A stretch of DNA of 64,000 nucleotides from a virus. The stretch covers positions 64,001 to 128,000 of the IMG/VR virus record IMGVR_UViG_3300045541_000131; one strand, 5' to 3'. Position numbers and translations under genes: made by a program. Under the pieces are notes generated by a model. That model saw only the letters and a list, made by a program, of their open reading frames with translations, had not been told where the DNA came from and made no database searches. This document shows, one piece after another, positions 25,325 to 54,641 of the stretch (within the stretch, counting starts at the first letter, position 1; the number at the start of each line of letters is the position of its first letter).

Positions 25325-25350
25325 AAGTATATTACAAAGGAGTATTTGCA

Positions 25351-28850: not shown

Positions 28851-29695
28851 CACAGAGATCAGAAATTAATTTTGACGAAGATAAGAACTATGTTCCTGTA
28901 TTGGATCATGGTTTCGTCGGTCTAGTTGACCATATGGGCAGTGATAGTGCTATTGTGCAGGCTGCTCGTGTCAGTTATGGTGCTGGCACTAAACAAGTTC
29001 AAGACGATCGTAACCTTATTCGTTATTTGATGCGTCACGAACATACTACTCCCTTTGAAATGTGCGAAGTCAAATTCCACATCAAGCTGCCTATCTTTGT
29101 CATGCGTCAGCTAGTGCGCCATCGCACTGCCAGTATGAACGAATATAGTGCTCGTTATAGTGTTATGACTGACGAGTTTTATATTCCCGAGCTAGAACAG
29201 ATTCAGCGTCAAAGTTCTACTAACAAACAAGGTCGCGAAGAAAGCGAATGGGGTTTTGAAGAACGACGCAATGTTCAGCATGCCTTTCAGCGTAGCTTCT
29301 TTAATGCTTATAAAGAGTACGCTAGTCTATTAGGCAAAGACAACGACGGGCTTACACGCGAGTTAGCCAGAAGTGTGCTGCCAGTGGGTGGTTATACTGA
29401 ATTGTATTGGAAAGCCAACTTGAAGAATTTCTTACACATGGCTCGCTTGCGTATGGATCCTCATGCCCAATGGGAGATTCAGGAATACGCTCGTGCCATG
29501 TACGACCTAGCCAAGCCTTTGTTTCCCGAAGCATGTCAGGCCTTTGAGGACTATGCCGTTAACACAGCTAAGTTTAGTTCGGCTGAATTTGAACTACTGA
29601 AGACGCTAATTGATCCTACGAAATGGGACGAATCTAAGGTCTCTGGACTTAGCAAACGAGAGCTTACTGAATTTAAAGCAAAGTTAGGTCTGTAA
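28847..29695 (+). CDS. thyX: Flavin-dependent thymidylate synthase
   Basis: AARVSY, HTTPFE, RHRTASMNEYSARY, HAQWEI. Confidence 0.96.
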   Translation: MTQRSEINFDEDKNYVPVLDHGFVGLVDHMGSDSAIVQAARVSYGAGTKQVQDDRNLIRYLMRHEHTTPFEMCEVKFHIKLPIFVMRQLVRHRTASMNEYSARYSVMTDEFYIPELEQIQRQSSTNKQGREESEWGFEERRNVQHAFQRSFFNAYKEYASLLGKDNDGLTRELARSVLPVGGYTELYWKANLKNFLHMARLRMDPHAQWEIQEYARAMYDLAKPLFPEACQAFEDYAVNTAKFSSAEFELLKTLIDPTKWDESKVSGLSKRELTEFKAKLGL

Positions 29696-30238
29696 AGGAT
29701 CTACACTTATTTCGTTGATGTGAACATCACCGGGCTGCTCAAGTATCCAACGGATATATTCAGCAGCCTTTCTTATTGGCATTGTTTTTCTATCTGGATG
29801 TTTGTGCTGAACATTGCTAAGTGAACCAAAGCTGATTAGCGTAACTCGAGGATTGTTGGCCCACACGCCTGTCATGCCTAAACTGTTGGCATAATCTCTC
29901 AGAGCTTTCTTTTCTGCGTTGTATAACCAATCAGTGGCTTTGTTTACCCTATCTGTAGTGCTGCCAATACAAATGATTAATGTACGCTTGTTTTCTGCTT
30001 TAAGTTTTTTATAAACTGCTTCAAGCAATAGCGTTTGATTAAATTTCCATAATGCGCTACAAAGAATGACTATATCATAGTCTACTGTCATGGCGGCGAA
30101 TTCTTGCTGTTTGTCACCTTTAGTTAGATCCATACCCATAGTCGATCTACTTACAAAGGTTAGTTCGTAGTCAGCTAATTCTTGTTTTATTTCATGAGCT
30201 AACCCATATTCAGGATTGCCTGCTACAAGTATTTTCAT
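29684..30238 (-). CDS. short-chain dehydrogenase/reductase-like protein
   Basis: ILVAG...YGLA, IGS, YNAEK (YxxxK). Confidence 0.75.
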   Translation of the reverse strand: MKILVAGNPEYGLAHEIKQELADYELTFVSRSTMGMDLTKGDKQQEFAAMTVDYDIVILCSALWKFNQTLLLEAVYKKLKAENKRTLIICIGSTTDRVNKATDWLYNAEKKALRDYANSLGMTGVWANNPRVTLISFGSLSNVQHKHPDRKTMPIRKAAEYIRWILEQPGDVHINEISVDPLQT

Positions 30239-31563
30239 TTGAACAGTTCCTCGTATTCATGGGCAATATCTAATATACTGTGGCCGCGAGCTTGATCTAG
30301 GTATTTGGTAAACTTAACGAACTCAGGGAGTTTGTCGCTGTAGTCTGCTCCTAGTGCGTACTTGGTTATGCTGTTTAAAATACTGGCAGCATTTTTAGCT
30401 ATATCATCCTCGAAGTTATCTGCAAAGTAAGCTATTTCTCTAGCGTAGTATTCAACTAGTTGCTGTTTAAGCTCCGGGGTCAATATTCTAATGTTTACTC
30501 TCTTAGGGCCATGTGCTACGTGATGAGTTATGATAGGACGCTTCTTAGTTGAGTTAATCTTTTTAAATCCGCTTTCCAGTAGCTTCCAACGCATAAATGT
30601 AGGTATGTGCCAAACATTATATGCTGTTACTGTACAGGCCATCCATGGCAGTATGTTGCTATTCTTTTGTGCGTACTCATCTAGTTTTTGTAGATTTTTA
30701 TATGCTTGTGTCCACTTTAAAGGCCAACGTTGATATTCTACTACCGCACCCATACCGTCCATGCTGGCACCAACTCTTACCTGCTTGAACTTTGTCCACA
30801 TGTCTAGTACACGATTAGGCAAGTTACTCATGTTAGTATTGTATTCTAGAATCATTTTGCCAGCTTGTCCCATGTCAATACATTTTTGCAAGAACTCATA
30901 ATGACGTTCAATCATCATAGGTTCACCGCCGGCCATATAAACATGCTTTAGGTTAGGAATGTTAGCTTCAATCTGCTGCCAAAATGTTTCGCTACTGTGC
31001 CAGTCATAGTCTCGAGTAGTTAATCTTCCGTTTTCATTGCGTGTTAGTTTAACTGTGCCATGTGTGTCTTTGTACTCGTTGCTGCCGTGATATTCAGTCC
31101 ATTGTTCATACCAAGTGTGACTATCTGTTGGGCCGCACATACGGCAAGCAAGATTACATAAGTTACCAAAACGTAGATCATAATATTCTAAGTTTGGCTC
31201 TTTAATTGTGCCATCTTCAGCAGTAACATATCTAGCATCGTCAATGCTGAACTTCCAGTTATCTAGTTCATATTGCCTGCGACTGTTAAGGCCGGCAGCT
31301 TCTTCTTGCTGACAGCGACCACATTCCTGGCTCCATTCACCAACTAGCATATTCTTACGAACTTCACGCATAAGCTCAGCATTTCGAGCTTCAGTCATGT
31401 TGTCCATGGCAGCATTGTATGGTGTGCCGTCTGGTTTGCGAACAACGCCTTGATTTTCAGTTACATTAGCTTGACAGCATATACGGATATCGCCGTTGTT
31501 GCGTACTGCTTGAAATATCCATGGTATAGGACAAAAAGTAGTTGTCATTAGAATTTCATCCAA
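30235..31563 (-). CDS. radical SAM protein, type A (N-terminal Cys-rich SPASM/twitch-like region)
   Basis: FCPIPW..CC..CGRC; CNLACRMC; AGGEP; YNTN. Confidence 0.9.
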   Translation of the reverse strand: MDEILMTTTFCPIPWIFQAVRNNGDIRICCQANVTENQGVVRKPDGTPYNAAMDNMTEARNAELMREVRKNMLVGEWSQECGRCQQEEAAGLNSRRQYELDNWKFSIDDARYVTAEDGTIKEPNLEYYDLRFGNLCNLACRMCGPTDSHTWYEQWTEYHGSNEYKDTHGTVKLTRNENGRLTTRDYDWHSSETFWQQIEANIPNLKHVYMAGGEPMMIERHYEFLQKCIDMGQAGKMILEYNTNMSNLPNRVLDMWTKFKQVRVGASMDGMGAVVEYQRWPLKWTQAYKNLQKLDEYAQKNSNILPWMACTVTAYNVWHIPTFMRWKLLESGFKKINSTKKRPIITHHVAHGPKRVNIRILTPELKQQLVEYYAREIAYFADNFEDDIAKNAASILNSITKYALGADYSDKLPEFVKFTKYLDQARGHSILDIAHEYEELFK

Positions 31564-32348
31564 TTTATATATTTTTCTATCGGGCCGGCTGGCACCACAA
31601 AATCATCATGATTAATAACCAGTTCTTCGTATTTTTTATTTTCGATTAGATTAGATATTTTTTCAAATAATATCAAGTTATTCTCGTCGGACAAGTGATT
31701 TTTTCGTTGATCTCTTAATACTCGGTGCTGTTGTACGTCAGCATATCCAAGATGAAGTCCGTTGTCTGAATATTTACTTTTATAATCTAATTGTTCTAAT
31801 TCCCAAAAACACAATTTAAGTAAACTATTGTTGTCCATCGACGATGCGTCAATGAATATCAGATTTTTTTCTTTTTTAATTTTTTCAGCAAGAATTTTAT
31901 TTGTATCTTCGATGTAATCAAAGTCTATCCAATTCTCATAACTAAATTTGACATTCTCGACGATTTGTAATTTTTTTAATAATTTAGAGTCATTGGGTTT
32001 GTTTTTTATCACCGCTTTTAATCGATTTTCTAATATTTCTATAGACGAGTGTCCAATGTACCACGAATGGTTAATGTTTCTTAATTCGTCGACATCCTTC
32101 AATAGTAAACTTAGTTTATCAGAATGAAATCTATTTGTAGATGGGCAGACAAAAATATTAACATCGTGGCTATGTTTATTGCGAAGGTAATCAATATAAC
32201 ACTTGTATGGCGATTTGCCTGGATTTGCGTAATTAATTACTTGGTATTTTGTTTTTAATAATTCTACCCAGCTAGGACCTAAATCAAGACTATCATGATT
32301 GACTTCAGCAAAACTATCCCCGTATATACCTACAGAGATATTACTCAT
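31548..32348 (-). CDS. SGNH/GDSL-like hydrolase or acyltransferase
   Basis: IYGDSF, NYANPGKS, terminal RKNHL. Confidence 0.65.
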   Translation of the reverse strand: MSNISVGIYGDSFAEVNHDSLDLGPSWVELLKTKYQVINYANPGKSPYKCYIDYLRNKHSHDVNIFVCPSTNRFHSDKLSLLLKDVDELRNINHSWYIGHSSIEILENRLKAVIKNKPNDSKLLKKLQIVENVKFSYENWIDFDYIEDTNKILAEKIKKEKNLIFIDASSMDNNSLLKLCFWELEQLDYKSKYSDNGLHLGYADVQQHRVLRDQRKNHLSDENNLILFEKISNLIENKKYEELVINHDDFVVPAGPIEKYINWMKF

Positions 32349-33507
32349 AAGTTTTATCTCCGGGGAATAACGGTAACTTTGTGCCTGGGGCACGTTTTGG
32401 TATCTTGCTATCAGCACTACTTACACAGCTCTTACCCCCGCAAGGCATTGGCTTGTCATAGAGCTTAAAACCTGTTTCAATGTGACCCAAAGGAACTTCG
32501 ACGCAACTATAACTACGCTTTACTGTTCCATCCGGTTCGCGAATAATAATACTGCGATAACCACTGCTACACTCCCAACCCTGAAAGTTATTAAAGTTAA
32601 AAGCATTAAAACGTTCAGCTTGATCCATGAACCATGGCTTGCCGTCCTTGTCGATGAATTCAACTTGATAATGTGCCGGCACATCAACTTGCTGTTTACG
32701 TTGTGGGTCAGCTCGGTCAATCATGTAAGTTGGCTTAGGTCTCTCTATTAGGCCAGCCGCTCGAGCCTTTTGCTCAGTATAAGCTCTCTGTGGCATGCCG
32801 TTGTGTAGCTTGGCTAGCATGTCTTCAGTATAGCCTTCTACCACACGACTGGCAGTAGGATCGCTTTGTGGCTTTAGTGTAACATTAATACCACGCTCAT
32901 GGAAGTAAAGTGCTAGGTCATAAATCTCATAGAATTGCTCAGGAACCATAACCATGTTAATGGTTATTTGTGTGTCATACTCCTGGCACAATACTAGCTT
33001 GTCAGCAAATTCGGCAACCTTCTCCTGTGTGTTAACATGCTCTCTGTGGCAGCTGGCCGTAATACTAGCACGATGGAAATGACGAACTGCCGGCACATAC
33101 TTTTGTTCAAACCACTTTAAAGGTCTGCTCATATTGCTGGTCATATGAACGCTGGTATAGTTTGTATTGGCTACATCTGCGTTTAGATGTTCTAGTATGT
33201 CAATATAAGCAGGATGAAATGTAGGTTCGCCTCCACTTAGACTAAAGTGGAAACTGTTAAAGCCGCGCTCGCGGGCCTGTCGTTTTATCTCGTCTACAGT
33301 TTTAAGCATCAACGGTGTAGGACGATGATCTTTCGTATCGCTACGAGCATATGGCCAACAATAGCTACAACGATAATTACAGTAGCGACCTAGTAGCCAA
33401 CTAACTGTAAACATATCACGATATAACATTGTGCGTTGTCCTACGCGAACAAGATCCTTGTAGGGTATTTTGGTAAAATCGTAATCGCTGGTTTTTAAAT
33501 CACTCAT
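32341..33507 (-). CDS. radical SAM protein, type C
   Basis: CNYRCSYC, SGGEP, C-terminal GWEC...SC...C...CVSSAD. Confidence 0.9.
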   Translation of the reverse strand: MSDLKTSDYDFTKIPYKDLVRVGQRTMLYRDMFTVSWLLGRYCNYRCSYCWPYARSDTKDHRPTPLMLKTVDEIKRQARERGFNSFHFSLSGGEPTFHPAYIDILEHLNADVANTNYTSVHMTSNMSRPLKWFEQKYVPAVRHFHRASITASCHREHVNTQEKVAEFADKLVLCQEYDTQITINMVMVPEQFYEIYDLALYFHERGINVTLKPQSDPTASRVVEGYTEDMLAKLHNGMPQRAYTEQKARAAGLIERPKPTYMIDRADPQRKQQVDVPAHYQVEFIDKDGKPWFMDQAERFNAFNFNNFQGWECSSGYRSIIIREPDGTVKRSYSCVEVPLGHIETGFKLYDKPMPCGGKSCVSSADSKIPKRAPGTKLPLFPGDKTYE

Positions 33508-33524
33508 TTTATTAATAAAATTCT

Positions 33525-34232
33525 TTATAAATTTGTTATATAAAAAGTCTGAAATGGAGGCTGTACATATTCGTCTATGTCAATATTTACTTCTTCGCCA
33601 GACAACCATTTTAAAACATTTCTAAAGAAAATTGCATTGTTTTCAGCTGACATGTGTGCATGTCTATAATCTGCCGTCTGGGCCCAATTTATGTCTAAGC
33701 TCCAGCCGTCTAACTCTTTGAAAGAAATATCCTTCATATATGATTTTCCTTTATAAAAATTAGATGTCGCTGAGCAAGCAGGAATTAATACTGCGTCGGG
33801 TCTTTTATCTAAAATATCTTTAATCATAAGGTTATACACATATGAATCATAATCATCATTTTGTATATATTGAAAATAATCCTTTACCGCAGTTAAAATT
33901 TTTAACTTTTGTAAATCGTTATCATTATACTTTTTAAGTTGACTCAGTTGGAACAATTGTCTTTCAACTGACGGCAGGCCCGCTTGATGTCGTCTGAGAT
34001 CTTTGATGTGGTGATCGGGCAAATATATTCTATTAACATCAGTGACTACAAAAATAATTTTATCAAAATCATGATGATTTTTTAAAAACTGATCCACTGA
34101 ATAAAACAGACTAGATCCTTGCTCGGCAAAATTTTTGACATCATGTATCTCAGACAGCAAATCCATCCAACTTGCTGTGGGGTTCCTAGGATTATTTGCA
34201 GCAAAGCTATCGCCAAATATAGCTATTTTCAT
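33525..34232 (-). CDS. SGNH/GDSL-like protein
   Basis: IFGDSF, NFAEQGSS, RHAHM. Confidence 0.65.
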   Translation of the reverse strand: MKIAIFGDSFAANNPRNPTASWMDLLSEIHDVKNFAEQGSSLFYSVDQFLKNHHDFDKIIFVVTDVNRIYLPDHHIKDLRRHQAGLPSVERQLFQLSQLKKYNDNDLQKLKILTAVKDYFQYIQNDDYDSYVYNLMIKDILDKRPDAVLIPACSATSNFYKGKSYMKDISFKELDGWSLDINWAQTADYRHAHMSAENNAIFFRNVLKWLSGEEVNIDIDEYVQPPFQTFYITNL

Positions 34233-34462
34233 TCTTCGCTTTCATAAACGAACTTAATGTCCCGGCCCGGGCCAACTTCACTGGGCATGCCGCCGTATTC
34301 TTTTATATACCATTCTATGGCGGCTACATACCAACCTTGACTATTATGTCTACTGGCAATATTAAACTTGTAAATATTATCATTGGTGGCAGGCATGGTG
34401 CTGATAACTCGAGCGGCCTCTAACTGTAGTCGACGTAAAGGTAAATCTTTTATATCAGTCAT
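34229..34462 (-). CDS. hypothetical 77-aa protein
   Basis: ATGA-coupled on both sides within the radical SAM operon. Confidence 0.65.
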   Translation of the reverse strand: MTDIKDLPLRRLQLEAARVISTMPATNDNIYKFNIASRHNSQGWYVAAIEWYIKEYGGMPSEVGPGRDIKFVYESEE

Positions 34463-35658
34463 AGGTCTAAGTTGTCCAATAGTTTAACTAATTGATCTGT
34501 CTTTTTGTAAGACTGTTTCTTTAAAAGAAATTCTTCGGCTATTTGTTTGTAATTGGGTTTGTACGAACTGCCAATCCTGCGGCGCATTTGCTGTAGGTAA
34601 TCTTGAAAATTTTCTTTGTATACATAATTTATATCTGTTGCCCGCGCTATAGCCGCTTCAGCTAGGTCAATGTATTTGACATAAGATTCTGGCAAATATG
34701 CTATGTCCATTTCATCTGGCCAGCTGGTAAAATTGCCGTACCATGTAAATTCTTTTGTCGGTGCGTGTTGTCTAAACTGTTCATGTACCCAATCAATATA
34801 TTGATGAAATGTTTTGAGACTAAACACGTTGGCTGTGGGACTCATTACTATAAGTTCTGTGTTGGCATGGCTAATATACTTGACAAAGTTTTCGCCGAAC
34901 CGCTGCCAATTTAACCCGTGTCGAATAAGCTCTGCTGTTTCACCGTAACTTTCATTGCTGATTCCTATACCCCAAACTAGCTTGCTGGTATCTAACTTAG
35001 CGATAATTTTATCCATTAGAAATCGCTTGCTGTTGGCATTGGTGCAGATTTCCAAACGAATCTTCTTTGTTGTATTAGCAGCACAAGATTCAATGAAATC
35101 AACTAGTTCATAAAAACGTTCGCTGGCTGTAGGTTCACCGCCTAAGAAAATAAACACCAATTGTTCAGCAGTCAGGTCAGTTCTGCTGATATAGTTTTGA
35201 ATCCAGGACTTAAACACTTCATAATCATTTTCTTTGGTTAAGTCTTGATAGGGTTCGTTTTGTTCCTGCGCTACTTTACTGCTGCTCCATGCACTACAGT
35301 AGATACAGCTCATGTCACAGGTTCTATCTGTTTTTATTTCAATGTAATTAATGTGCCTATCGTCATTGAGAATTTCTCGATGATTTTCAATGTAAGAATC
35401 CTGCCAACGATTGGCCCAATCCCTATAGGCACTTTGACCTTTACTGTAGTCGTTCCAACAGCTAACACAGTCAGAATGTGCGATATTGGACAGACTTTGA
35501 AGCCTGCGACTTTGTATTTTATCGCTGTTGCTGATAAATTGTTCGGTTAATGTTTCCGGAAACGAATAGGTTTTAGCCTTACAGCAGTGCTTTAATGTTC
35601 TGGTTTCAAAGTCAATGTTAATATCTGTCCAGGATTTGGAGCAGTAAGTTTTTGTCAT
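34459..35658 (-). CDS. radical SAM protein, type A
   Basis: YCSKSW..HCC..CVSCW; CDMSCIYC; LGGEP. Confidence 0.88.
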   Translation of the reverse strand: MTKTYCSKSWTDINIDFETRTLKHCCKAKTYSFPETLTEQFISNSDKIQSRRLQSLSNIAHSDCVSCWNDYSKGQSAYRDWANRWQDSYIENHREILNDDRHINYIEIKTDRTCDMSCIYCSAWSSSKVAQEQNEPYQDLTKENDYEVFKSWIQNYISRTDLTAEQLVFIFLGGEPTASERFYELVDFIESCAANTTKKIRLEICTNANSKRFLMDKIIAKLDTSKLVWGIGISNESYGETAELIRHGLNWQRFGENFVKYISHANTELIVMSPTANVFSLKTFHQYIDWVHEQFRQHAPTKEFTWYGNFTSWPDEMDIAYLPESYVKYIDLAEAAIARATDINYVYKENFQDYLQQMRRRIGSSYKPNYKQIAEEFLLKKQSYKKTDQLVKLLDNLDL

Positions 35659-35708
35659 GATAAATTTATTTTGACAAGAAAATGTCAATGCAGTTCATAA
35701 ATATTTAT

Positions 35709-46423: not shown

Positions 46424-46440
46424 ATTAGTATTTACTAAAA

Positions 46441-48236: not shown

Positions 48237-49170
48237 TATGTTTAGGTATCAGCACATCAGCAGTACACATGCACCATTCTGTGTGACAAATTGAGGGCTC
48301 GGTGGACAATGTTTCAAAATTTGATATGTCTGCAATTTTTTTAGCTTGTCTGCAAGTAGATTGCAGTATTTGTCCATAGCTGGTAATGGAAATATGATCA
48401 ATGCCCATATTACAATTCCATCCAACAAAACTATTTTGTCTATTGTTTACACATTCCACTTCATCAAACACACGAGTATTTTCGTTGTCGCGAATTAAAT
48501 TCTGACCATAGCGATTATGCTGCTTGGGGATAAAGATATTATCTTTGTAAATTGTATTGCTGTTTTCTGCCAACCATTTTAATTGTTCTTCTGTATATTC
48601 GTAGCTAACATCAAATTTATCTACGTGGTCTCGTTTGAAAACTCTGCTAGGTGCAATGGTCACACGCGGCATGTTTTTAAATTTGTAATAAGCATTCAAA
48701 GCTTTGTCCCACAACGGTGGATACATTAATGTAAACACGCCAACATTTGTTTGTGTGCCAATATATTCTACTTTTTCAAATATTTCTTCATCTACAACTG
48801 TTTCGGGATGATAGCTTATGGTTACTTTATATGCTTTCTTTGCGTACTCTTGCCACCAATCTAAACTGCGAGTTCCATTGGTATTAACATAAGCACACCA
48901 ATCATGGGCGTGGCAAAAGTCTAGTATGGGTTCCAGACTGGGACTAATTGTAGGTTCGCCGCCGTTGATAAAAATATGCACACTGCGGCCTTTTACTTGT
49001 TGATAAAGCTTATGTAAGAAATTGTCAATTATTTTTTGATCATCTTCCCTACTGTAAATAAAATTTTGGCCGCGATGAAACATTGGCGGACAATAGCTGC
49101 AATGATAAGTGCATAAGCTGTTTAGTGTCCAGTCAACGACAAATCTATTTGTATCATTGAATATTTTCAT
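48220..49170 (-). CDS. radical SAM protein, type C
   Basis: CTYHCSYC, NGGEP, GWNC...C...C...CMCTAD. Confidence 0.88.
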   Translation of the reverse strand: MKIFNDTNRFVVDWTLNSLCTYHCSYCPPMFHRGQNFIYSREDDQKIIDNFLHKLYQQVKGRSVHIFINGGEPTISPSLEPILDFCHAHDWCAYVNTNGTRSLDWWQEYAKKAYKVTISYHPETVVDEEIFEKVEYIGTQTNVGVFTLMYPPLWDKALNAYYKFKNMPRVTIAPSRVFKRDHVDKFDVSYEYTEEQLKWLAENSNTIYKDNIFIPKQHNRYGQNLIRDNENTRVFDEVECVNNRQNSFVGWNCNMGIDHISITSYGQILQSTCRQAKKIADISNFETLSTEPSICHTEWCMCTADVLIPKHNELSK

Positions 49171-50408
49171 TTTATATCAACTAACCAAGGGAAAGTTTGC
49201 TTCCAGTCAGTTCCGCGACGGCTGTCCATTGTAGTTAAAAACTTTTTCAAATATAATATGTTGTTGTATGGCTGACTACGACTATTTTCAATTTCACTGA
49301 AAATTCCTTTAGTGTATTCTTGAGCTACAGGATCATATTTGTACATAATTTTATTAAGCTCAATCAACTCGTCAAAATATTTTGTATACGTTCCGCTTGG
49401 CATAATATGTGGATCTAAATATTTTGGATCAATACATTTGTTATAATTAACTGAAATTAAACGCTGTTTTTGCCAATGGATAACTTTTCTAACAAGATCA
49501 GCAATATAAGGAATACTCAATGCACTAACTGTCCAGTTCATGCCAGGATGCACTTCGGGGCATTCGTAAACAAGGTAGTTCATGTTTTCTTCAAACGTTG
49601 CCAAGTCTAGACCGTATCTTACATATTCGCTGGCAGGCCCCCAACAATCAATACTGGCTATAATTTGTACACGCTCTACTGTGCCGGCTAATTTACGAAT
49701 CTTTTCCATGTTGCGTCTAAACAACTCAGGCTTAATTTGCATATTGCTGTATATTTCAACGTCAACATTGGGATTGGGATGAGCAATCATCCAATCAATA
49801 CAATCAAAGCATTCTGTTTGAATGAATGGTTCGCCGCCTAATATATCAAAGGCCTTTAAACTACTGTAGTTTTCTTCCATCCACTTGTAGAATTTTTCTA
49901 ACCTTTGCTTGTAAGTGGCGTCTAATTCCCAGGGATCAAAGTCATAGGTCTTGCCCTGGCTGTATTTCCATTCTTCTTTGACCCAGGCGCTGCTGAGATT
50001 GGGGCCGCAGTACAAACATTTTAAGTTACATTTGTTATTAAAGTGTACACTAAGCTGAGTAGGTTTTACTCTGGTCAAGGAAGGATTTTGATACAGTTCA
50101 ACGGGCACATATTTTTTATTATCAGGTCGGCTTAGAAAGTTAACTCTGTCGCTCATGCCACCAGCTAGTTCTTGGTCCCTGCAATGTTCACAGCCGCGGC
50201 CGTCACTGGGCCATTCGCCGCGCAGCATTTTTTCTCTGTGCAAAACTACAGGTGCAGTATTGTGAAAATCATAGTCATCGGGGATATCAGCATTTTGATT
50301 TCTATGACAACTGCTGCTTTTATTTTCCCAAAGATATAAGCTGACTTGACTCCATTTTTGGAGACAAACTGTTTTGCCCTGAGGCGGGAACCATTTTCCA
50401 ATTTCCAT
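49167..50408 (-). CDS. radical SAM protein, type A
   Basis: CLQKW..SCH..CEHC; CNLKCLYC; LGGEP. Confidence 0.88.
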   Translation of the reverse strand: MEIGKWFPPQGKTVCLQKWSQVSLYLWENKSSSCHRNQNADIPDDYDFHNTAPVVLHREKMLRGEWPSDGRGCEHCRDQELAGGMSDRVNFLSRPDNKKYVPVELYQNPSLTRVKPTQLSVHFNNKCNLKCLYCGPNLSSAWVKEEWKYSQGKTYDFDPWELDATYKQRLEKFYKWMEENYSSLKAFDILGGEPFIQTECFDCIDWMIAHPNPNVDVEIYSNMQIKPELFRRNMEKIRKLAGTVERVQIIASIDCWGPASEYVRYGLDLATFEENMNYLVYECPEVHPGMNWTVSALSIPYIADLVRKVIHWQKQRLISVNYNKCIDPKYLDPHIMPSGTYTKYFDELIELNKIMYKYDPVAQEYTKGIFSEIENSRSQPYNNILYLKKFLTTMDSRRGTDWKQTFPWLVDIK

Positions 50409-50437
50409 AGTATGTTTTATAGTGTCGAATATTTATT

Positions 50438-51610
50438 CTAACATTTGTCAAACCAATTAATGTATTCTGGAAATACAGTTCTCCAATTTCTTTTTTTAAT
50501 TAGATCCAGCTGTGTAATGGCGTGTCGGAACTTTTCGGCATTGTTAACATCATTGAGTAAAATGCCCTGTAGATTTTTATGAAAATTTCCTTCAAACTTG
50601 TGATCTATGTTGGCTTGGCGAATATAGTTGTCCAGAGAAATTAATTCTGAATTAAATCTCTGATCTAATATCTCGGGTCTGAAAAATTGTTGATGAGTGT
50701 AATTGTATAAAAAATTTACATTGTAATTACCAAAGTATTTGATAAAATCCACAATCTTTACGATTGTAAACGCATTAAATGTCATCCTGATATTAGTTTT
50801 ATCAGCCATGCTGTGATGTATTTTAAAGTTTTCAACAAATGTTATCCAGTTTAATCCATCACGAACATATTCGGCACGCTCTTCTAAATTTTCTATACTA
50901 AGGATAACAGTGATTTTTATTCTATCCTTAAGGCCAGACTCTTTTATGTTGTTGTAGAACTTTAGGATATTGGAACTTTTTGTGTTACCGTTTGTAGATA
51001 TTCCAATGCTAATTGTATTTTCTACGTTCTTGTCCAAGAAGGCTCGGGCAAGTGTTATTACATCATCTTCAAAATTTTCAACTATAAACGGCTCGCCACC
51101 TGTAATACCAAAATCAATTGCTCTAATATTTTCAGGCAGGTCTTTAATAAAGTCTGCTATATGTTGAATAGTAATTGACGAATAGTTTTTTCTGGGTATA
51201 ATACTGTAAACAGCAACCGAATCACTGTGCAGCCACTGACCTAAACTAACAATACTTGTGCTATAGTCAGGGCTACAGTAAAAGCAGGTTTGATTACAAA
51301 GGTTGGATAATTGTAAATTTATAGTAACTAAATTTTCGTTAGCACCTAAGTTTTTATGCTGACGCCAGCTGACTGAATTTTTATTTTCTTGTCGCCAACA
51401 ATCGTTGCATCTACTAGTTTGCACCCCACTAGCAAGATCCTGGCGGGCTTTAACAGTTTCCCTGTTATTATCAAAGTATTTGTGCTGTAATCGTTGAACT
51501 TCTGATTCTTCAACTATTATCGGAATGAACTTACAGCAATGACTAAATTTGTTTTGATTAAAATTAATGTCGTATGAATTGTTTAATTCCGAGCAATATA
51601 TCGAAGTCAT
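50438..51610 (-). CDS. radical SAM protein, type A
   Basis: HCC..CNDCW; CNQTCFYC; TGGEP. Confidence 0.88.
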   Translation of the reverse strand: MTSIYCSELNNSYDINFNQNKFSHCCKFIPIIVEESEVQRLQHKYFDNNRETVKARQDLASGVQTSRCNDCWRQENKNSVSWRQHKNLGANENLVTINLQLSNLCNQTCFYCSPDYSTSIVSLGQWLHSDSVAVYSIIPRKNYSSITIQHIADFIKDLPENIRAIDFGITGGEPFIVENFEDDVITLARAFLDKNVENTISIGISTNGNTKSSNILKFYNNIKESGLKDRIKITVILSIENLEERAEYVRDGLNWITFVENFKIHHSMADKTNIRMTFNAFTIVKIVDFIKYFGNYNVNFLYNYTHQQFFRPEILDQRFNSELISLDNYIRQANIDHKFEGNFHKNLQGILLNDVNNAEKFRHAITQLDLIKKRNWRTVFPEYINWFDKC

Positions 51611-51613
51611 GAT

Positions 51614-52795
51614 TTATTCAATGGCATCAAACCATTCTATGTATTCAGGAAATACTGTTCGCCAGTTTTTATTTTTAATTGTATCAATATTAGTTATCGC
51701 TCGTTTAAACAACCTTGCATTATCTTTGTCGTCTTTAATCATGTCAGGTAAGAATTTGTAAAATTGTTTTTCAAATCTATGGCCAACATCTTCTGCTGTA
51801 ATATATTGATTTAACCTTTCTAATTCATAATTAAATCTTTTGTCTAATACTTCCATTCTGAGAAAATTCTGAAACGGGTAATTGTAATTAAACTTAACAT
51901 TACTATAGCCCATGAAATATTTAAAAAATTCAGTAATTTTTACTACCGAAAAGGGATTCATAGTTAGTCGTATACTCGATGCATCAGCCATACTGTGATG
52001 AATTTTAAAGTTTTCTTCGAAATTGGACCAAATCAATCCATCCCTTACATATTCTGCTCGCTCTTCAATATTTTCTAGACTAGAAACAATACCAAATGTA
52101 ATTCTATGTTTTAAATTTAATTGATTAAATTTATCGTAAAAATCCATAACCTTTCCGGGTTTTGTATTAGTATTAGTTGATATTACTATGGATACTTGTC
52201 TGGCATCATTGGTAAACAAGAAGACTTTGGCCAACTCGACCATATTATCTTCAAAATCTTCTAATAGAAAAGGCTCTCCACCGGAGATGCTGAGATTTAA
52301 TTGTTCGACTGATTGATCTAAATTTTTTACAAAGTCAATAACAGTTTGAAAACTTATCGATGCTGGAGTATAATTACTTTTAGTAGTGTTTCGAACTTCT
52401 GCGGTGCTAGTATGTATCCATGATCCGTATTTGGCTATTGTGCTACTAGACTCGGGTAAACAATAAAAACAAGATTGATTACACAATGAACTTAATTGAA
52501 TATTGAGATAAAGTTCATTATCTTTAATTCTGTTACTTTTAATCAAGCGCCAACTTGGAAGATTTTTCCCTTCGTTATCCCAACAATCCTGACATCTAGG
52601 CGTTTGTATTCCATTAGCTAAGTCACTGCGGGCCCGTAAAGTTTCAGAATTTTCGTTGAAATAGCGATATCCTAAATTATTTAATTCTGAAGGACTTACT
52701 GATATTCCCTTAAATCTACAGCAATGACTAAATTGTCCGTTATGTAAACTAATATCATAATTTCTATACAATAAATCACAACTAATAGAATCCAT
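51614..52795 (-). CDS. radical SAM protein, type A (close paralog of 50438)
   Basis: HCC..CQDCW; CNQSCFYC; SGGEP. Confidence 0.88.
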   Translation of the reverse strand: MDSISCDLLYRNYDISLHNGQFSHCCRFKGISVSPSELNNLGYRYFNENSETLRARSDLANGIQTPRCQDCWDNEGKNLPSWRLIKSNRIKDNELYLNIQLSSLCNQSCFYCLPESSSTIAKYGSWIHTSTAEVRNTTKSNYTPASISFQTVIDFVKNLDQSVEQLNLSISGGEPFLLEDFEDNMVELAKVFLFTNDARQVSIVISTNTNTKPGKVMDFYDKFNQLNLKHRITFGIVSSLENIEERAEYVRDGLIWSNFEENFKIHHSMADASSIRLTMNPFSVVKITEFFKYFMGYSNVKFNYNYPFQNFLRMEVLDKRFNYELERLNQYITAEDVGHRFEKQFYKFLPDMIKDDKDNARLFKRAITNIDTIKNKNWRTVFPEYIEWFDAIE

Positions 52796-53970
52796 TATGA
52801 AAATTGCTCCTTGAAGGCATCGTATTTAGTTCCGCAAATTTTGGCACACATTGCGGCTTTGCCTTCGGCACAACTAGACTTGTTCCAACTGTCGGGAATT
52901 ACACGCTGAAAGTAGTCGCCGTTGATAATTTGTTCAAGGCTATGATTTTTAGCATTTAAATTATCTAAACCAACTTCGTCGATAAACTTCCAAACCTGAG
53001 CACTTTTTTCTTTATAATACCAAACATACATTTGACCTGCTAGCCAACAACAAGGTTGCACTACGCCCTCGGCAGTAATGTACAAGTTCTTTTCTTTGGC
53101 CACTTTACAGTCAATTACTGCCTCGTCCCAAATGTGTTCTACTGGTTTCTTCTTAGCGGGATCAATGCTAAAGCTTTGCAGACCCTGTAAGTCAACTAGT
53201 TTGTCTACTGTAACTACGTTGTCTACTGTAATAGCCTGTGCGTTGGCAGGATTAGCAGCAGCCTTAAGTTGATCTAGTACAGCATTACGATACTTGGGAT
53301 TCGTCGGTGCTTGCAGTAAGGTAGTTAGGCCTTTGCGATTTTGTGCTTGATGCACGTCTTTCGTTTGAGCTTTTGTATTGCTGAAAAATCTTGCGGACTT
53401 TTTAAACTGAAACTTTTCAAAGCCCATATCTTTACTTAACTGTTCGGCAGCTTCAACTTGATGTTCATTATGAGCAAATACAATAAAGTCCCACCGAGCT
53501 CTGCCTCCTGCTGCAATAAAGGCTCGAACATTGTCCATGATCTTAGACCATACAGTGCCCTGACGATACAAGTGATTAGTATCTTCTAGGCCATCTAAGC
53601 CAAACACTACATAACCCTTACGCCCAATTACTTGTGCTAGTTCTGTCCACCATTCGGGCTTCTTCATTGAACCATTGGTATGCATACTTAAGAACAAGTC
53701 TGGATTTTGTTGCCTAAAGTAAGCAAATGCTTCTAGTGTATCTTTTGCTACAGCAGGATCGCCGTAGTTGCCACACATGTAAATGCGTTTTAGCTGCTTG
53801 ACGAAATCTACTGGAAATATACGTTCAACATCGCTGATACTAAGTTCACGATTATTAAGATGAGGATTAATGTCTCCACCATTTAAGTTCCTTGCACACA
53901 TAGGACAAGAAGCATTACATGCTTCTGTCATTTCTAAATGAACGACTTCGATGTCGTTGTAATTATACAC
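52795..53970 (-). CDS. radical SAM protein, type B
   Basis: CNASCPMC, GDP, TNGS, QPCC, CAKICG. Confidence 0.9.
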   Translation of the reverse strand: MYNYNDIEVVHLEMTEACNASCPMCARNLNGGDINPHLNNRELSISDVERIFPVDFVKQLKRIYMCGNYGDPAVAKDTLEAFAYFRQQNPDLFLSMHTNGSMKKPEWWTELAQVIGRKGYVVFGLDGLEDTNHLYRQGTVWSKIMDNVRAFIAAGGRARWDFIVFAHNEHQVEAAEQLSKDMGFEKFQFKKSARFFSNTKAQTKDVHQAQNRKGLTTLLQAPTNPKYRNAVLDQLKAAANPANAQAITVDNVVTVDKLVDLQGLQSFSIDPAKKKPVEHIWDEAVIDCKVAKEKNLYITAEGVVQPCCWLAGQMYVWYYKEKSAQVWKFIDEVGLDNLNAKNHSLEQIINGDYFQRVIPDSWNKSSCAEGKAAMCAKICGTKYDAFKEQFS

Positions 53971-54640: not shown

Positions 54641-54641
54641 A

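What the first reader, a model, noticed from the sequence alone, without database searches (positions are those of the whole stretch)
29684..53970. Phage-borne array of 14 radical SAM enzymes in 24 kb: candidate undescribed hypermodification system
Seen: 14 separate ORFs with a CxxxCxxC motif and GGEP/GDP-type motifs (lower coordinates 30235, 32341, 34459, 37920, 39967, 41219, 43842, 45026, 47172, 48220, 49167, 50438, 51614, 52795). They are interleaved with SGNH-like proteins, 2OG-Fe(II) oxygenases and an SDR, mostly translationally coupled, and lie downstream of glycosyltransferases and a carbamoyltransferase. Established: SPASM/twitch radical SAM enzymes modify peptides, proteins and sugars (e.g. 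BtrN is a twitch-domain sugar dehydrogenase), and phages normally carry only a few radical SAM genes. Inference: this is a diversifying enzymatic toolkit that decorates a glycan or macromolecule (virion proteins, phage DNA or the host surface) in a combinatorial way.
Basis: partly seen in the sequence, partly recalled or inferred. Interest (0 to 1): 0.92.

Follow-up and report, generated by a model that had tools for sequence, protein, structure and literature searches.

The report
Phage radical-SAM sugar-tailoring gene island
An uncultured giant lake phage carries, beside its tail-fibre genes, a tightly packed island with 15 intact iron-sulfur "radical SAM" enzymes mixed with sugar-handling genes; it most likely edits a sugar coat by radical chemistry that nobody has yet tested.

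Summary
All 14 ORFs carry CxxxCxxC and match Radical_SAM. A 15th lies beyond the window edge, in one gap-free island of about 45 kb that ends at tail-fibre-like genes.

- **Enzyme types:** nine of the 14 are NCBIfam NF033640 (N-terminal twitch, never assayed), three have a C-terminal SPASM-like module, and two are short.
- **Not housekeeping:** none reaches a MoaA, NrdG, PqqE or QueE cut-off.
- **Selection:** orthologues show saturated dS with low dN.
- **Assembly:** contigs from another freshwater study tile the same 20 kb.
- **Layout:** three radical SAM genes recur in fixed order in related viral contigs, with variable radical SAM/SGNH/oxygenase cassettes between them. This window is at the top of that range.
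- **Cellular relatives:** the same three genes, with glycosyltransferases, occur in a Bacteriovoracaceae MAG and a Parcubacteria MAG.
- **Missed gene:** a conserved 77-aa protein usually precedes the SPASM-type gene in relatives and is fused to radical SAM enzymes elsewhere.

Sugar tailoring is inferred; the substrate and target are unknown.

This scan has reported the same kind of array on other phage DNA at least six times. Two papers mention such gene counts and cassettes without assigning a function. This is a large member of a recurring, uncharacterised kind.

The parts
29684..30238 (-). 184-aa Rossmann/SDR-like protein at the last position of the island
   Evidence: Only adh_short at E 0.11. 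Orthologues at 49-72% in 11 loci. The assignment is weak.
30235..31563 (-). N-terminal-twitch radical SAM (semi-conserved)
   Evidence: NF033640 at 371.9 bits, cut-off 170. CX3CX2C at residue 136. Orthologues at 46-83% in 28 loci. 38-42% to genes in the cellular loci.
31548..32417 (-). SGNH/GDSL-like protein
   Evidence: Joined to the 43109 family by iterated profile search from 3 of the 4 seeds that linked the family. No Pfam hit.
32341..33507 (-). Short radical SAM, conserved anchor 3
   Evidence: PF04055 at 51.7 bits. Orthologues at 66-91% in 34 of 80 loci. 57% to genes in L083 and L085. dN 0.07-0.09 with dS saturated.
33525..34232 (-). SGNH/GDSL-like protein, paralogue of 31548
   Evidence: 29% identical to 31548. 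Iterated profile.
34229..34462 (-).
   Evidence: Fills the 226-nt 'gap'. Homologues at 39-92% in 45 loci, and in 31 of those it sits directly upstream of the 52795-type gene. 3334 database proteins, none of the 120 listed with a Pfam domain. Fused to radical SAM enzymes in 15 of 17 longer proteins.
34459..35688 (-). N-terminal-twitch radical SAM
   Evidence: NF033640 at 169.6 bits, full length, just under the cut-off. PF04055 at 30.7 bits.
35682..36443 (+). Asp/Asn-beta-hydroxylase-type Fe/2OG oxygenase, first gene of an inverted 3-gene cassette
   Evidence: PF05118 at 41.8 bits. The cassette 35682-36370-37920 recurs inverted in relatives.
36370..37923 (+). 517-aa protein of a virus-only unknown family
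   Evidence: No Pfam, NCBIfam or PHROG hit. Nearest Atlas clusters are 94-100% viral. A 688-aa cluster with Asp_Arg_Hydrox scores 0.84, which is a lead only.
37920..40004 (+). 694-aa N-terminal-twitch radical SAM with a 230-aa extra N-terminal region
   Evidence: NF033640 at 243.5 bits over residues 232-678.
39967..41229 (-). N-terminal-twitch radical SAM
   Evidence: NF033640 at 323.4 bits. Pfam SPASM at residues 9-71, ahead of Radical_SAM at 124-303.
41219..42292 (-). Radical SAM with a C-terminal SPASM-like Cys module
   Evidence: PF04055 at 54.4 bits. SPASM at 17.6 bits, below the cut-off. 28% identical to 52795.
42289..43119 (-). Possible Fe/2OG-type oxygenase (unverified)
   Evidence: Invariant H115, D117 and H252 in 10 homologues. 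No Pfam or PDB sequence match. Always next to the 41219-type gene in relatives.
43109..43855 (-). GDSL/SGNH hydrolase-like protein
   Evidence: PF00657 at 28.3 bits. Centre of an 8-member island family.
43842..45029 (-). N-terminal-twitch radical SAM
   Evidence: NF033640 at 280.9 bits. SPASM at residues 15-81. No orthologue above 39% in the 80 loci.
45026..46423 (-). N-terminal-twitch radical SAM, conserved anchor 2
   Evidence: NF033640 at 435 bits. 203 viral stretches, the best 80 at 69-96%. 4622 database proteins at E <= 1e-10. omega 0.013 against L002. Model pLDDT 87.7.
46441..47175 (-). SGNH/GDSL-like protein
   Evidence: Iterated profile. No Pfam hit.
47172..48236 (-). Radical SAM with a C-terminal SPASM-like module
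   Evidence: PF04055 at 28.0 bits, E 2.8e-6. 39% identical to 52795 over 193 residues.
48220..49170 (-). Short radical SAM, paralogue of 32341
   Evidence: PF04055 at 29.5 bits. Best NCBIfam hit is STM4011 family at 48.2 bits, below the cut-off of 200.
49167..50408 (-). N-terminal-twitch radical SAM
   Evidence: NF033640 at 243.6 bits. PF04055 at only 18.5 bits.
50438..51610 (-). N-terminal-twitch radical SAM, one of the only young pair
   Evidence: NF033640 at 139.8 bits, full length, below the cut-off. 49% identical to 51614.
51614..52795 (-). N-terminal-twitch radical SAM
   Evidence: NF033640 at 149.1 bits, below the cut-off.
52795..53970 (-). Radical SAM with C-terminal SPASM, conserved anchor 1
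   Evidence: PF04055 at 42.7 and SPASM at 22.5 bits. Orthologues in 72 of 80 loci. 47-48% to genes in L083 and L085.
53963..54682 (-). GT-A-fold glycosyltransferase-like protein
   Evidence: Model pLDDT 85.2. Foldseek hits to GT-A enzymes at prob 1.0 but TM only 0.30-0.44. Invariant D72 and D74. No Pfam or PHROG hit.
54642..55649 (-). GT-A-fold glycosyltransferase-like paralogue
   Evidence: 28% identical to 53963. 37% to a gene in the Bacteriovoracaceae locus.
55618..57630 (-). 670-aa protein: about five N-terminal repeats plus the same GT-A-like domain
   Evidence: The C-terminal 225 residues are 33% identical to 53963. The repeats were seen by eye in the translation.
57627..59099 (-). Carbamoyltransferase (NodU/CmcH type)
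   Evidence: PF16861 at 184 bits and PF02543 at 136 bits.
59096..60187 (-). GatZ/KbaZ-like sugar-phosphate enzyme homologue
   Evidence: PF08013 at 32.5 bits, partial match.
60165..60887 (-). Shikimate-dehydrogenase-like NAD(P) oxidoreductase
   Evidence: PF08501 at 34 bits. TIGR00507 at 92.9 bits, below the cut-off of 200.
60884..61216 (-). 110-aa ORF filling the 312-nt 'gap'
   Evidence: Homologues at 38-41% in 3 loci. It looks NTF2-like by eye only.
61200..62798 (-). Sugar-1-phosphate nucleotidyltransferase fused to a kinase-like domain
   Evidence: NTP_transf_3 at 26.3 bits and APH at 19.5 bits, both just under their cut-offs. TIGR03992 at E 4e-15, partial.
62734..63174 (-). Small cupin-like protein
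   Evidence: phrog_7851 ('cysteine dioxygenase') at E 1.8e-13.
63165..63980 (-). SGNH/GDSL-like protein
   Evidence: Iterated profile hits at E 1e-15 to 5e-33 from four seeds. No Pfam hit.

Best explanation
This is a cassette-variable, entirely soluble sugar-tailoring island in the tail-fibre (host-recognition) region of an uncultured giant freshwater phage.

Shown:
- About 45 co-packed genes include 15 intact radical SAM enzymes: 10 N-terminal-twitch, 3 with a C-terminal SPASM-like module, and 2 short.
- They also include 8 SGNH-like proteins, 3 GT-A-fold proteins, a carbamoyltransferase, a nucleotidyltransferase-kinase fusion, and sugar-phosphate and dehydrogenase homologues.
- Three radical SAM genes (52795-, 45026- and 32341-type) keep the same order in related phages. 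In two cellular genomes they keep that order next to glycosyltransferases.
- Other radical SAM, SGNH and oxygenase genes come and go between them.

Inferred mechanism:
- The kinase-nucleotidyltransferase and its neighbours supply an activated sugar.
- The GT-A proteins attach it to an acceptor made in the cytoplasm, most likely a virion surface or fibre protein.
- Each radical SAM enzyme uses the 5'-deoxyadenosyl radical, with its auxiliary cluster as electron relay, to abstract a hydrogen at one defined sugar C-H. The outcome would be oxidation, epimerisation, deoxygenation or C-C coupling.
- SGNH proteins, oxygenases and the carbamoyltransferase add or remove ester, hydroxyl and carbamoyl groups.
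- Swapping cassettes changes the final decoration.

The conserved 77-aa protein is probably an accessory or substrate-presenting partner of the SPASM-type enzyme. The phage's own SufB/SufD would help load the roughly 30 Fe-S clusters.
For: Radical SAM identity and intactness:
- All 14 ORFs have the motif and an HMM match.
- Four N-terminal Cys, the CX3CX2C motif and GGE are invariant across all 10 N-twitch paralogues. Nearly the same set holds across 49 diverse homologues, where C28 is 90% or more conserved rather than invariant.

Selection: dN is 0.03-0.35 with dS at 1.3 or more, or saturated, for the 11 radical SAM genes that have orthologues at 54% or more. omega is 0.013-0.13 where it can be computed.

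Sugar context in the phage:
- Carbamoyltransferase, nucleotidyltransferase, GatZ-like and AroE-like genes.
- GT-A fold with an invariant DxD.
- Eight SGNH-like paralogues.

Sugar context in cells:
- The same three genes lie contiguous in a Bacteriovoracaceae MAG with a 54642-like gene and two GT2 genes.
- In a 1.27-Mb Parcubacteria contig they lie with GT4, aminotransferase, AsnB-like and YrdC-like genes.

Anchor-and-slot layout: 0-7 ORFs lie between anchors 1 and 2, and 2-9 between anchors 2 and 3, in relatives. This window has 6 and 10. 288 N-twitch ORFs in 80 loci fall into 96 clusters at 55% identity.

Cytoplasmic chemistry: none of the 43 island proteins listed has a hydrophobic 19-residue window at KD >= 1.6.

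Tail-fibre adjacency:
- 73102 matches a tail-fibre PHROG, and more weakly a C-terminal chaperone-type domain.
- It is joined to the island with gaps of 37 nt or less.
- 73102- and 71694-like genes precede the array in many relatives.

Fe-S supply: SufB/SufD lie on the same contig.

The 77-aa protein: adjacency and fusions.
Against: - No substrate, product or target has been observed.
- No member of NF033640 has been assayed, as far as my searches show.
- Structure comparison cannot separate sugar- or nucleotide-acting from peptide-acting radical SAM enzymes. anSME, BlsE, CteB, viperin, SuiB and DesII all tie at Z about 12.
- SPASM/twitch enzymes and an Asp/Asn-hydroxylase-type oxygenase are also typical of peptide modification. 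A small conserved gene directly upstream of a SPASM enzyme is the classic RiPP arrangement.
- GT-A similarity is weak (TM 0.30-0.44, no Pfam hit).
- The virion as target rests only on gene position and on the absence of membrane proteins. The PT-rich linkers of the adjacent fibre-like protein are not found in the 10 homologues examined (0 of 10).
- Expression timing is unknown. The T4 late motif TATAAATA is depleted on the contig: 5 copies against 17.9 +/- 3.7 in shuffles.
- SGNH and 2OG assignments for most accessory genes rest on in-session profiles or motifs only.
Confidence: 0.45

Rival explanations
1. The chemistry is the same, but the target is the host. The island rewrites nucleotide-sugar pools or host envelope glycans (LPS, capsule) during infection, to block superinfection or adsorption of progeny to infected cells. 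This was proposed for glycosyltransferases in the pelagimyophage host-recognition cluster.
For: PMC7029224 (passages read) places glycosyltransferases and radical SAM cassettes in that cluster and argues for host O-chain modification. In the Bacteriovoracaceae locus the core genes lie near multi-pass membrane proteins with 9 and 6 predicted segments, as expected for a surface-polysaccharide locus.
Against: None of the 43 island proteins listed has a predicted membrane segment, so the phage encodes no flippase, polymerase, ligase or lipid-carrier transferase. Those two membrane proteins in L083 have no Pfam assignment. Host identity and infection length are unknown.
Confidence: 0.2
2. This is protein or peptide hypermodification (RiPP-like). 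The SPASM/twitch enzymes, the hydroxylase and the GT-A proteins modify the conserved 77-aa protein, or the tail-fibre proteins themselves. Possible changes are cross-links, epimerisation, hydroxylation and glycosylation.
For: - The 77-aa gene sits immediately upstream of the SPASM-type gene, usually overlapping it, in 31 of 45 loci.
- It is fused to radical SAM enzymes in 15 of 17 longer proteins.
- The best Foldseek hits of the GT-A model include the peptide S-glycosyltransferases SunS and ThuS.
- An Asp/Asn-hydroxylase family member is present.
- Peptide maturases are among the tied structural neighbours.
Against: - The 77-aa protein is conserved along its folded core, while its C-terminus varies.
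- It has no Cys.
- It was not found in the two cellular genomes that keep the three core genes.
- In one large relative it lies about 140 kb from the array, with no radical SAM neighbour.
- No PqqD/RRE domain appears among the Pfam hits of any of the 14 enzymes.
- The cellular contexts are rich in glycosyltransferases and show no recognisable precursor gene.
Confidence: 0.15
3. The island is a secondary-metabolite pathway. It makes a diffusible aminoglycoside-, cyclitol- or nucleoside-like small molecule during infection.
For: The TobZ/NodU-type carbamoyltransferase, shikimate-dehydrogenase-like, GatZ-like and kinase-nucleotidyltransferase genes recall such pathways, and so does BtrN-style twitch chemistry (that link is recalled, not from a call). 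A cultured cyanophage paper speculates about 'antibiotic synthesis genes', including a radical SAM gene (PMC12801897, passages read).
Against: There is no exporter or resistance gene, and no membrane protein at all. There are no aminotransferases in the phage island. Three GT-A paralogues and the position next to fibre genes fit a macromolecular acceptor better. The extreme cassette turnover resembles surface-antigen loci.
Confidence: 0.08
4. The island hypermodifies phage DNA. The radical SAM enzymes and transferases decorate bases or base-linked sugars.
For: ThyX directly flanks the island.
Against: That DNA-modification locus is separate, on the other strand and 14 kb away. The island itself contains no DNA-binding, TGT/DpdA-like or nucleotide-kinase family hit. 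It is contiguous with fibre genes. Its cellular counterparts sit among glycosyltransferases.
Confidence: 0.04

Closest known systems
NCBIfam NF033640, N_Twi_rSAM (twitch domain-containing radical SAM protein)
   Same: Nine of the 14 genes give full-length matches, six above the 170-bit cut-off and three at 140-170 bits. They share the defining layout: a 4-Cys module before the CX3CX2C core.
   Different: The family carries no assigned reaction, so membership names the fold but not the function. Five of the 14 genes belong to two other radical SAM types.
Host-recognition cluster of pelagimyophages/cyanomyophages (Zaragoza-Solas et al. 2020, PMC7029224), and the T4-like viral genome with 12 radical SAM genes (Nishimura et al. 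2017, PMC5332604)
   Same: [quoted passage not shown] The Fe-S assembly genes on the same genomes are also noted (passages read).
   Different: Those papers report presence and counts only. This phage is much larger: CheckV rates the 139-kb contig 33% complete. Its polymerase is closest to Sinorhizobium/Agrobacterium jumbo phages at 46-49%. That paper states that its freshwater pelagimyophage group lacks radical SAM genes. The VrlC/gp14 borders could not be checked because the contig ends.
Single radical SAM sugar or nucleoside tailoring enzymes with auxiliary clusters (BtrN, DesII, BlsE, viperin)
   Same: They share the radical SAM core plus, in most, an auxiliary-cluster domain. BlsE, DesII and viperins are among the tied top structural and sequence neighbours. 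This is the proposed type of chemistry.
   Different: In those enzymes the auxiliary domain is C-terminal or absent, and they act singly in a pathway. Here it is N-terminal in 10 enzymes and 15 enzymes act in one island. Similarity is limited to the common core (13-17% identity). BtrN itself did not appear in my lists, and its properties are recalled, not tested.
Radical SAM/SPASM RiPP maturase systems (PqqE/PqqD/PqqA, MftC/MftB/MftA, sactipeptide and cyclophane synthases)
   Same: A SPASM-type enzyme is preceded by a small conserved gene that elsewhere is fused to the enzyme's N-terminus, which is the position of an RRE. anSME, CteB, SuiB and SkfB are tied structural neighbours.
   Different: No PqqD/RRE Pfam hit was seen. 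The small protein is conserved in its core rather than showing a leader/core pattern. It was not found in the cellular genomes with the same three core genes. Scores to every named maturase model are far below cut-off.
Virus-encoded cytoplasmic glycosylation of virion proteins (chlorovirus PBCV-1 A64R; mycobacteriophage capsid glycosylation)
   Same: These are soluble virus-encoded GT-A enzymes with no membrane machinery. PBCV-1 A64R is among the Foldseek hits of the 53963 model.
   Different: No radical SAM tailoring is known in those systems (recalled). Glycosylation of this phage's virion is not shown.

Membership tests
Radical SAM superfamily (PF04055) | CX3CX2C cluster motif | tested here: met
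   14 of 14, one motif each. The 15th gene beyond the window has it too.
Radical SAM superfamily (PF04055) | Profile match at the curated cut-off (29.5 bits) | tested here: met
   9 of 14 are at or above the cut-off. The other 5 score 18.5-28.0 bits (E 2.6e-5 to 2.4e-3). Four of those 5 have full-length NF033640 matches, three over its cut-off and 51614 at 149.1 bits. 47172 is 39% identical to 52795.
Radical SAM superfamily (PF04055) | Partial TIM-barrel core fold | tested here: met
   Tested for 45026 only. Model pLDDT 87.7. VIA Z 11-12, rmsd 3.7-4.2 over 190-228 residues to many radical SAM structures.
Radical SAM superfamily (PF04055) | Reductive SAM cleavage activity | not testable with these tools
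   Needs anaerobic enzymology.
NF033640 N_Twi_rSAM | Full-length match at or above 170 bits | tested here: met
   Six genes pass: 30235 (371.9), 37920 (243.5), 39967 (323.4), 43842 (280.9), 45026 (435) and 49167 (243.6). Three fall below with full-length alignments: 34459 (169.6), 51614 (149.1) and 50438 (139.8).
NF033640 N_Twi_rSAM | Auxiliary-cluster Cys module N-terminal to the core | tested here: met
   C10, C28, C91 and C94 (45026 numbering) are invariant in 10 of 10 paralogues. Pfam SPASM lies at residues 9-71 and 15-81, ahead of the core, in 39967 and 43842.
Housekeeping radical SAM families (MoaA, NrdG, PqqE, QueE) | Score at the equivalog cut-off | tested here: not met
   The best scores are MoaA 44.5 against 284, NrdG2 21.4 against 131, PqqE 17.8 against 381 and QueE 33.2 against 206. 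The separate QueE-like gene at 15190 is outside the island.
RiPP radical SAM/SPASM maturase system | Precursor peptide gene next to the maturase | tested here: inconclusive
   A conserved 77-aa gene precedes the SPASM-type gene in 31 of 45 loci. However, it is conserved in its core, has no Cys, and in this window lies 18 kb from 52795.
RiPP radical SAM/SPASM maturase system | RRE/PqqD-like recognition domain | tested here: inconclusive
   No such Pfam hit in the 14 enzymes. None of the 120 listed homologues of the 77-aa protein has a precomputed Pfam domain.
GT-A glycosyltransferases | GT-A fold with a DxD motif | tested here: inconclusive
   Foldseek prob 1.0 but TM 0.30-0.44 to SunS, A64R, WrtF and B4GALNT1. 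D72 and D74 are invariant in 22 sequences. No Pfam or PHROG hit.
SGNH/GDSL hydrolase superfamily | Profile match and an N-terminal GDS(L)-type block | tested here: inconclusive
   Pfam supports only 43109 (28.3 bits) and two DUF6071 proteins beyond the window. The other five join through an iterated in-session profile and a GDS/GCS block seen by eye.
Pelagimyophage-type host-recognition cluster | Hypervariable island with tail fibres, glycosyltransferases and radical SAM cassettes | tested here: met
Pelagimyophage-type host-recognition cluster | Location between VrlC and neck gene gp14 | not tested
   The contig ends 600 nt past the fibre-like genes. The other border is ThyX and nucleotide-metabolism genes.

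The most novel reading that the evidence does not exclude
Giant aquatic phages and predatory bacteria (Bdellovibrionota) share an ancient three-enzyme radical SAM core. It builds a so-far-unknown radical-modified sugar on their prey-binding fibres or surface. Phages have expanded it into a combinatorial 'glycan code': dozens of interchangeable N-twitch radical SAM cassettes, at least 96 types in 80 loci, each catalysing a distinct C-H functionalisation. Part of the chemistry runs on, or is presented by, a dedicated 77-aa partner protein. If so, NF033640 would be a large reservoir of new carbohydrate radical chemistry, and phage surface glycans would be a hypervariable trait under host-range selection.
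Probability: 0.2. Interest if true: 0.9.

Novelty: new variant of a known kind. Interest (0 to 1): 0.64.

Why it matters
Radical SAM enzymes that act on sugars are known almost only as single tailoring steps. Here 15 sit in one phage island, and the dominant family (NF033640) has no characterised member.

The family is abundant. One orthologue alone has 4622 database relatives. Related 211-246-kb viral contigs carry 5-13 copies above the family cut-off.

Working out one reaction would annotate thousands of viral and bacterial genes. It could also reveal new carbohydrate chemistry.

If the product decorates virions or fibres, it would be a new layer of host-range and immune-evasion variation in abundant aquatic phages.

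Three results make the question experimentally approachable without culturing the phage:
- a conserved three-gene core;
- cellular counterparts in Bdellovibrionota, some of which are culturable;
- a small partner protein.

Tried and rejected
- **Housekeeping reading:** rejected. NCBIfam scores for MoaA, NrdG, PqqE and QueE are far below cut-off.
- **Chimeric or cellular contig:** rejected. The window holds PolB, FEN, ThyX and fibre genes. 80 syntenic viral loci were retrieved. Contigs of run X3, from a different study than the possible source runs, tile 34001-53916 with 0.5-2.3% differences.
- **Cassette deletions:** not counted. The eight 'joints' have sides of 21-45 letters, seven of them under 30, and several connect paralogous radical SAM genes.
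- **Recent tandem duplication:** rejected. Paralogues are 18-35% identical, apart from 50438/51614 at 49%. Orthologues are 46-96% identical.
- **Cultured relatives:** only 4 of 50,697 phage records match 45026, at 22-25% identity.
- **Structure-based substrate call:** failed. Foldseek and VIA ties do not separate sugar-, nucleotide- and peptide-acting enzymes. PDB sequence searches gave only core matches: TigE (8VPO), viperins and BlsE with the N-twitch profile, NifB for 52795, and nothing for 45026 alone or for 32341.
- **PT-rich linkers as O-glycosylation acceptor:** found in 71694 here but in 0 of 10 homologues. Dropped.
- **Promoters:** sigma-70-like sites are not enriched, at 76 against 68.6 +/- 8.8. 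TATAAATA is depleted. No timing inference was made.
- **phrog_13607-like paralogues (beyond the window):** no relation to the GT-A profile (hhalign prob 0.1) and no PDB match.
- **42289 profile against PDB:** nothing.
- **Complex prediction of 52795 with the 77-aa protein:** no verdict, score 0.00 against a mark of 0.32.
- **Expression:** no RNA holder is listed among the sequencing runs.
- **77-aa profile against PDB:** only short spurious matches to designed repeat proteins and antibody light chains.
- **Literature:** searches for a function of N-twitch arrays found none within the held library. PMC10878394 and PMC12710340 were seen as search listings only. Supplementary tables, such as Table S1E of PMC5332604 listing the 12 genes, could not be opened.
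- **Recalled, not from a call:** the BtrN, LpxO, TobZ, PqqD/MftB, AmgK/MurU and SunS background, and the phylum names for the two MAGs.

Full report
**1. What is in the sequence**

The window is bases 64001-128000 of a single 138,652-bp viral contig. CheckV rates the contig 33% complete, so the genome may be around 400 kb; that size is my inference.

The left half of the window carries replication and nucleotide genes on the + strand:
- a family-B DNA polymerase whose best matches are Sinorhizobium phage Phosso (49%) and Agrobacterium phage Atu_ph07 (46%);
- a 5'-3' exonuclease;
- a MoxR/VWA pair;
- PhyH;
- ThyX.

From 29684 onwards almost everything is on the - strand.
- All 14 match Pfam Radical_SAM. 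Nine are at or above the gathering score and five are below it, at E 2.6e-5 to 2.4e-3.
- Four of those five weak ones have full-length NF033640 matches, three over its cut-off and 51614 at 149.1 bits. The fifth, 47172, is 39% identical to 52795.
- GGEP is present in 11 of 14. The three remaining genes have the GDP-type block.

A 15th radical SAM gene lies beyond the window at window-equivalent 69679-71088. A QueE-like gene at 15190 belongs to a different locus.

**2. Three enzyme architectures**

- **N-terminal twitch.** Nine of the 14 give full-length matches to NCBIfam NF033640, 'twitch domain-containing radical SAM protein'.
  - Six are above the 170-bit cut-off and three score 140-170 bits.
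  - In an alignment of the ten N-twitch paralogues, four N-terminal Cys, the CX3CX2C, GGEP, and two Arg, one Asn and two Ser are invariant.
  - Nearly the same set holds across 49 diverse homologues.
  - In two of them Pfam places a SPASM domain in front of the radical SAM domain.
- **C-terminal SPASM-like.** Three genes (41219, 47172, 52795) start with the radical SAM motif and carry a C-terminal SPASM-like Cys module.
- **Short.** Two genes (32341, 48220) are short enzymes whose best named hits are the STM4011 family, viperin-like or QueE models, all far below cut-off.

No gene reaches the cut-off of MoaA, NrdG, PqqE or QueE.

**3. The rest of the island**

- an Asp/Asn-hydroxylase-type oxygenase (35682);
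- a GDSL protein (43109);
- a carbamoyltransferase (57627);
- a GatZ/KbaZ-like protein;
- a shikimate-dehydrogenase-like protein;
- a nucleotidyltransferase fused to a kinase-like domain;
- a cupin.

Three paralogues (53963, 54642 and the C-terminus of 55618) have no family hit. A pLDDT-85 model is GT-A-like, with an invariant D-x-D. Foldseek hits are SunS/ThuS, PBCV-1 A64R, WrtF and B4GALNT1, at prob about 1 but TM only 0.30-0.44.

An iterated profile search on the session's own sequences links eight island proteins to the GDSL protein and to two DUF6071 proteins. Only three of the eight have direct Pfam support.

42289 has an invariant H-x-D...H pattern but no profile support. The 'SDR' at 29684 is not statistically supported.

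Beyond the window lie three phrog_13607 paralogues, further SGNH-like genes, a nucleotidyltransferase-like protein (by eye), a 468-aa fibre-like protein and a 301-aa protein. The 301-aa protein matches tail-fibre PHROGs, and weakly a Peptidase_G2-type C-terminal domain.

None of the 43 island proteins listed has a hydrophobic window typical of a membrane helix.

30 of 40 same-strand junctions overlap. The only two apparent gaps are filled by small ORFs. The fibre-like genes and the enzymes therefore form one uninterrupted block, apart from one inverted three-gene cassette (35682-40004).

**4.

- **Housekeeping:** not met (section 2).
- **Selection.**
  - For the 11 radical SAM genes with orthologues at 54% or more, dN is 0.03-0.35 while dS is 1.3 or more, or saturated. 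omega is 0.013-0.13 where it can be computed.
  - For 43842, 50438 and 51614 no close orthologue was in the 80 loci. Their only support is that every catalytic residue is intact.
- **Chimera or cellular origin:** not met.
  - 203 viral stretches encode a 45026 orthologue. The best 80 are 69-96% identical, and their neighbourhoods are syntenic with this window.
  - Contigs of an independent freshwater run tile 34001-53916 with 0.5-2.3% differences.

**5. Comparative anatomy: anchors and slots**

In the 80 loci (21.4 kb or less each) there are 2-12 radical SAM ORFs.

Three types recur in fixed order:
- the 52795-type, in 72 of 80 loci;
- the 45026-type, in 80 of 80 by construction;
- the 32341-type, in 34 of 80, many loci ending before it.

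Between anchors 1 and 2 lie 0-7 ORFs, and between anchors 2 and 3 lie 2-9. This window has 6 and 10, the top of the range.

The fillers are other radical SAM genes with SGNH-like, oxygenase-like or unknown partners. Some recur as modules, such as 42289+41219+39967 and the inverted 35682+36370+37920.

The 288 N-twitch ORFs in these loci fall into 96 clusters at 55% identity.

Five related viral records of 211-246 kb hold 8-19 matches to NF033640, of which 5-13 genes are over the cut-off. None of the 14 control cell genomes has one over the cut-off.

A GT-A-type gene precedes anchor 1 in most loci, and fibre-like genes precede that in many.

**6. The same core in cells**

A genome scan with 45026 found four MAG loci.
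- **Bacteriovoracaceae MAG (160-kb contig).**
  - The three anchors are contiguous and overlapping, at 47, 62 and 57% identity.
  - They are flanked by a 54642-like gene (37%), two GT2 genes, three more N-twitch genes and two multi-pass membrane proteins without Pfam hits.
- **Parcubacteria MAG (1.27-Mb contig).** The anchors lie in the same order among seven N-twitch genes, a GT4, an aminotransferase, an AsnB-like and a YrdC-like gene.
- **Phylum samples.** In the Bacteriovoracaceae MAG's phylum, 19 of 101 sampled genomes have the family, with up to 11 copies. In the Parcubacteria MAG's phylum, 1 of 101 does, and that one is the MAG itself.

The array type is therefore not phage-specific. Its cellular context is again glycosyltransferase-rich.

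**7.

The 226-nt 'gap' at 34232-34459 encodes a 77-aa protein.
- Homologues at 39-92% occur in 45 of the loci held.
- In 31 of those 45 the gene lies directly upstream of the 52795-type gene, usually overlapping it.
- In at least 13 of the 45 it lies downstream of a GT-A-type gene.
- Its core is strongly conserved while its C-terminus varies.
- The big protein database holds 3334 relatives of about 74 aa. None of the 120 listed has a Pfam domain.

Of 17 longer proteins containing the domain:
- nine have it at the N-terminus of a 52795-type enzyme;
- five have it at the C-terminus of a 48220/32341-type enzyme;
- one has it at the C-terminus of an N-twitch enzyme;
- one has it after UDP-glucose-dehydrogenase-type domains;
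- one is a 173-aa protein with no other hit.

Some of these fusions could be gene-calling read-through of overlapping genes. I could not check that.

The gene is single-copy in this contig and in 4 of 5 large relatives. It was not found in the two cellular genomes, and in one relative it lies far from the array.

It is a candidate partner, substrate-presenting domain or substrate of the SPASM-type enzyme.

**8. Interpretation**

The best-supported reading is sugar tailoring. The enzymes that can be named handle activated sugars and sugar esters, and the cellular counterparts sit among glycosyltransferases. The anchor-plus-cassette turnover resembles surface-antigen loci.

The absence of any membrane protein and the physical continuity with fibre genes favour a cytoplasmic acceptor such as a virion protein. 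This is inference, and host-glycan remodelling remains a serious rival.

The peptide/protein rival gains from the 77-aa gene and the SPASM context. It loses from the lack of that gene in cells with the same core.

Structure and sequence comparison could not discriminate substrate class.

SufB/SufD on the same contig fit the Fe-S demand. Nishimura et al. noted the same for marine viral genomes.

**9. Novelty**

The gene family is catalogued. Arrays have been mentioned in two papers without a function. My literature searches found no assay or mechanism within the held library.

This scan has already produced at least six follow-up reports on equivalent arrays in other phage DNA, and one on a CPR genome. 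They reached the same 'sugar tailoring, untested' reading. That agreement is not independent evidence.

What this window adds:
- one of the largest arrays, with 15 enzymes;
- the explicit three-anchor layout;
- the shared core in Bdellovibrionota and a Parcubacteria genome;
- the eight-member SGNH expansion;
- the 77-aa partner with its fusions.

Noticed in passing
window 55618-57630 (-), residues about 85-430: The 670-aa GT-A-like protein begins with about five repeats of roughly 58 residues, each sharing a W-x-x-D-P-K-F ... W-x-A-K pattern. They have no family hit. Relatives have 224-1035-aa versions, so the repeat number seems to vary.
   Followed up: partly
whole contig G000 (window -64000 to 74652): The T4 late-promoter word TATAAATA occurs 5 times, against 17.9 +/- 3.7 in mononucleotide shuffles. 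This phage probably does not use the classic T4 late motif.
   Followed up: partly
L001:8694-10100 (-), window-equivalent 71694-73100: The fibre-like 468-aa protein has two Pro/Thr-rich linkers and a Gly run at its C-terminus. None of its 10 homologues in related loci has such linkers.
   Followed up: yes
window 15190-16050 (+): The QueE-like protein matches QueE models in two pieces (residues 3-37 and 118-248). This suggests an insertion of about 80 residues in the enzyme. It belongs to a separate deazaguanine-type locus noted by another reader.
   Followed up: no
window 23871-26547 (+): A MoxR-type AAA ATPase is followed by a DUF2201 metallopeptidase/VWA protein. This is a conserved pair of unknown role in a phage.
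   Followed up: no
protein P0257 (metagenomic, 323 aa): The 77-aa domain is fused behind UDP-glucose/GDP-mannose-dehydrogenase-type domains (PF03721, PF00984). This is a second, sugar-nucleotide-linked fusion partner. It is 33% identical to the window's copy.
   Followed up: partly
G005:C1:196986-199625 (related viral record): Two full-length NF033640 matches share one 889-aa open frame. This suggests a natural tandem fusion of two N-twitch radical SAM enzymes.
   Followed up: no
G000:C1:14972-17634 (49 kb before the window): SufB (265 bits) and a short SufD-like gene lie on the same phage contig.
   Followed up: partly
window 36370-37923 (+): An Atlas cluster of 688-aa viral proteins with Asp_Arg_Hydrox (score 0.84, a lead only) resembles this unknown protein. 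This hints that in other phages it is fused to the neighbouring hydroxylase.
   Followed up: no
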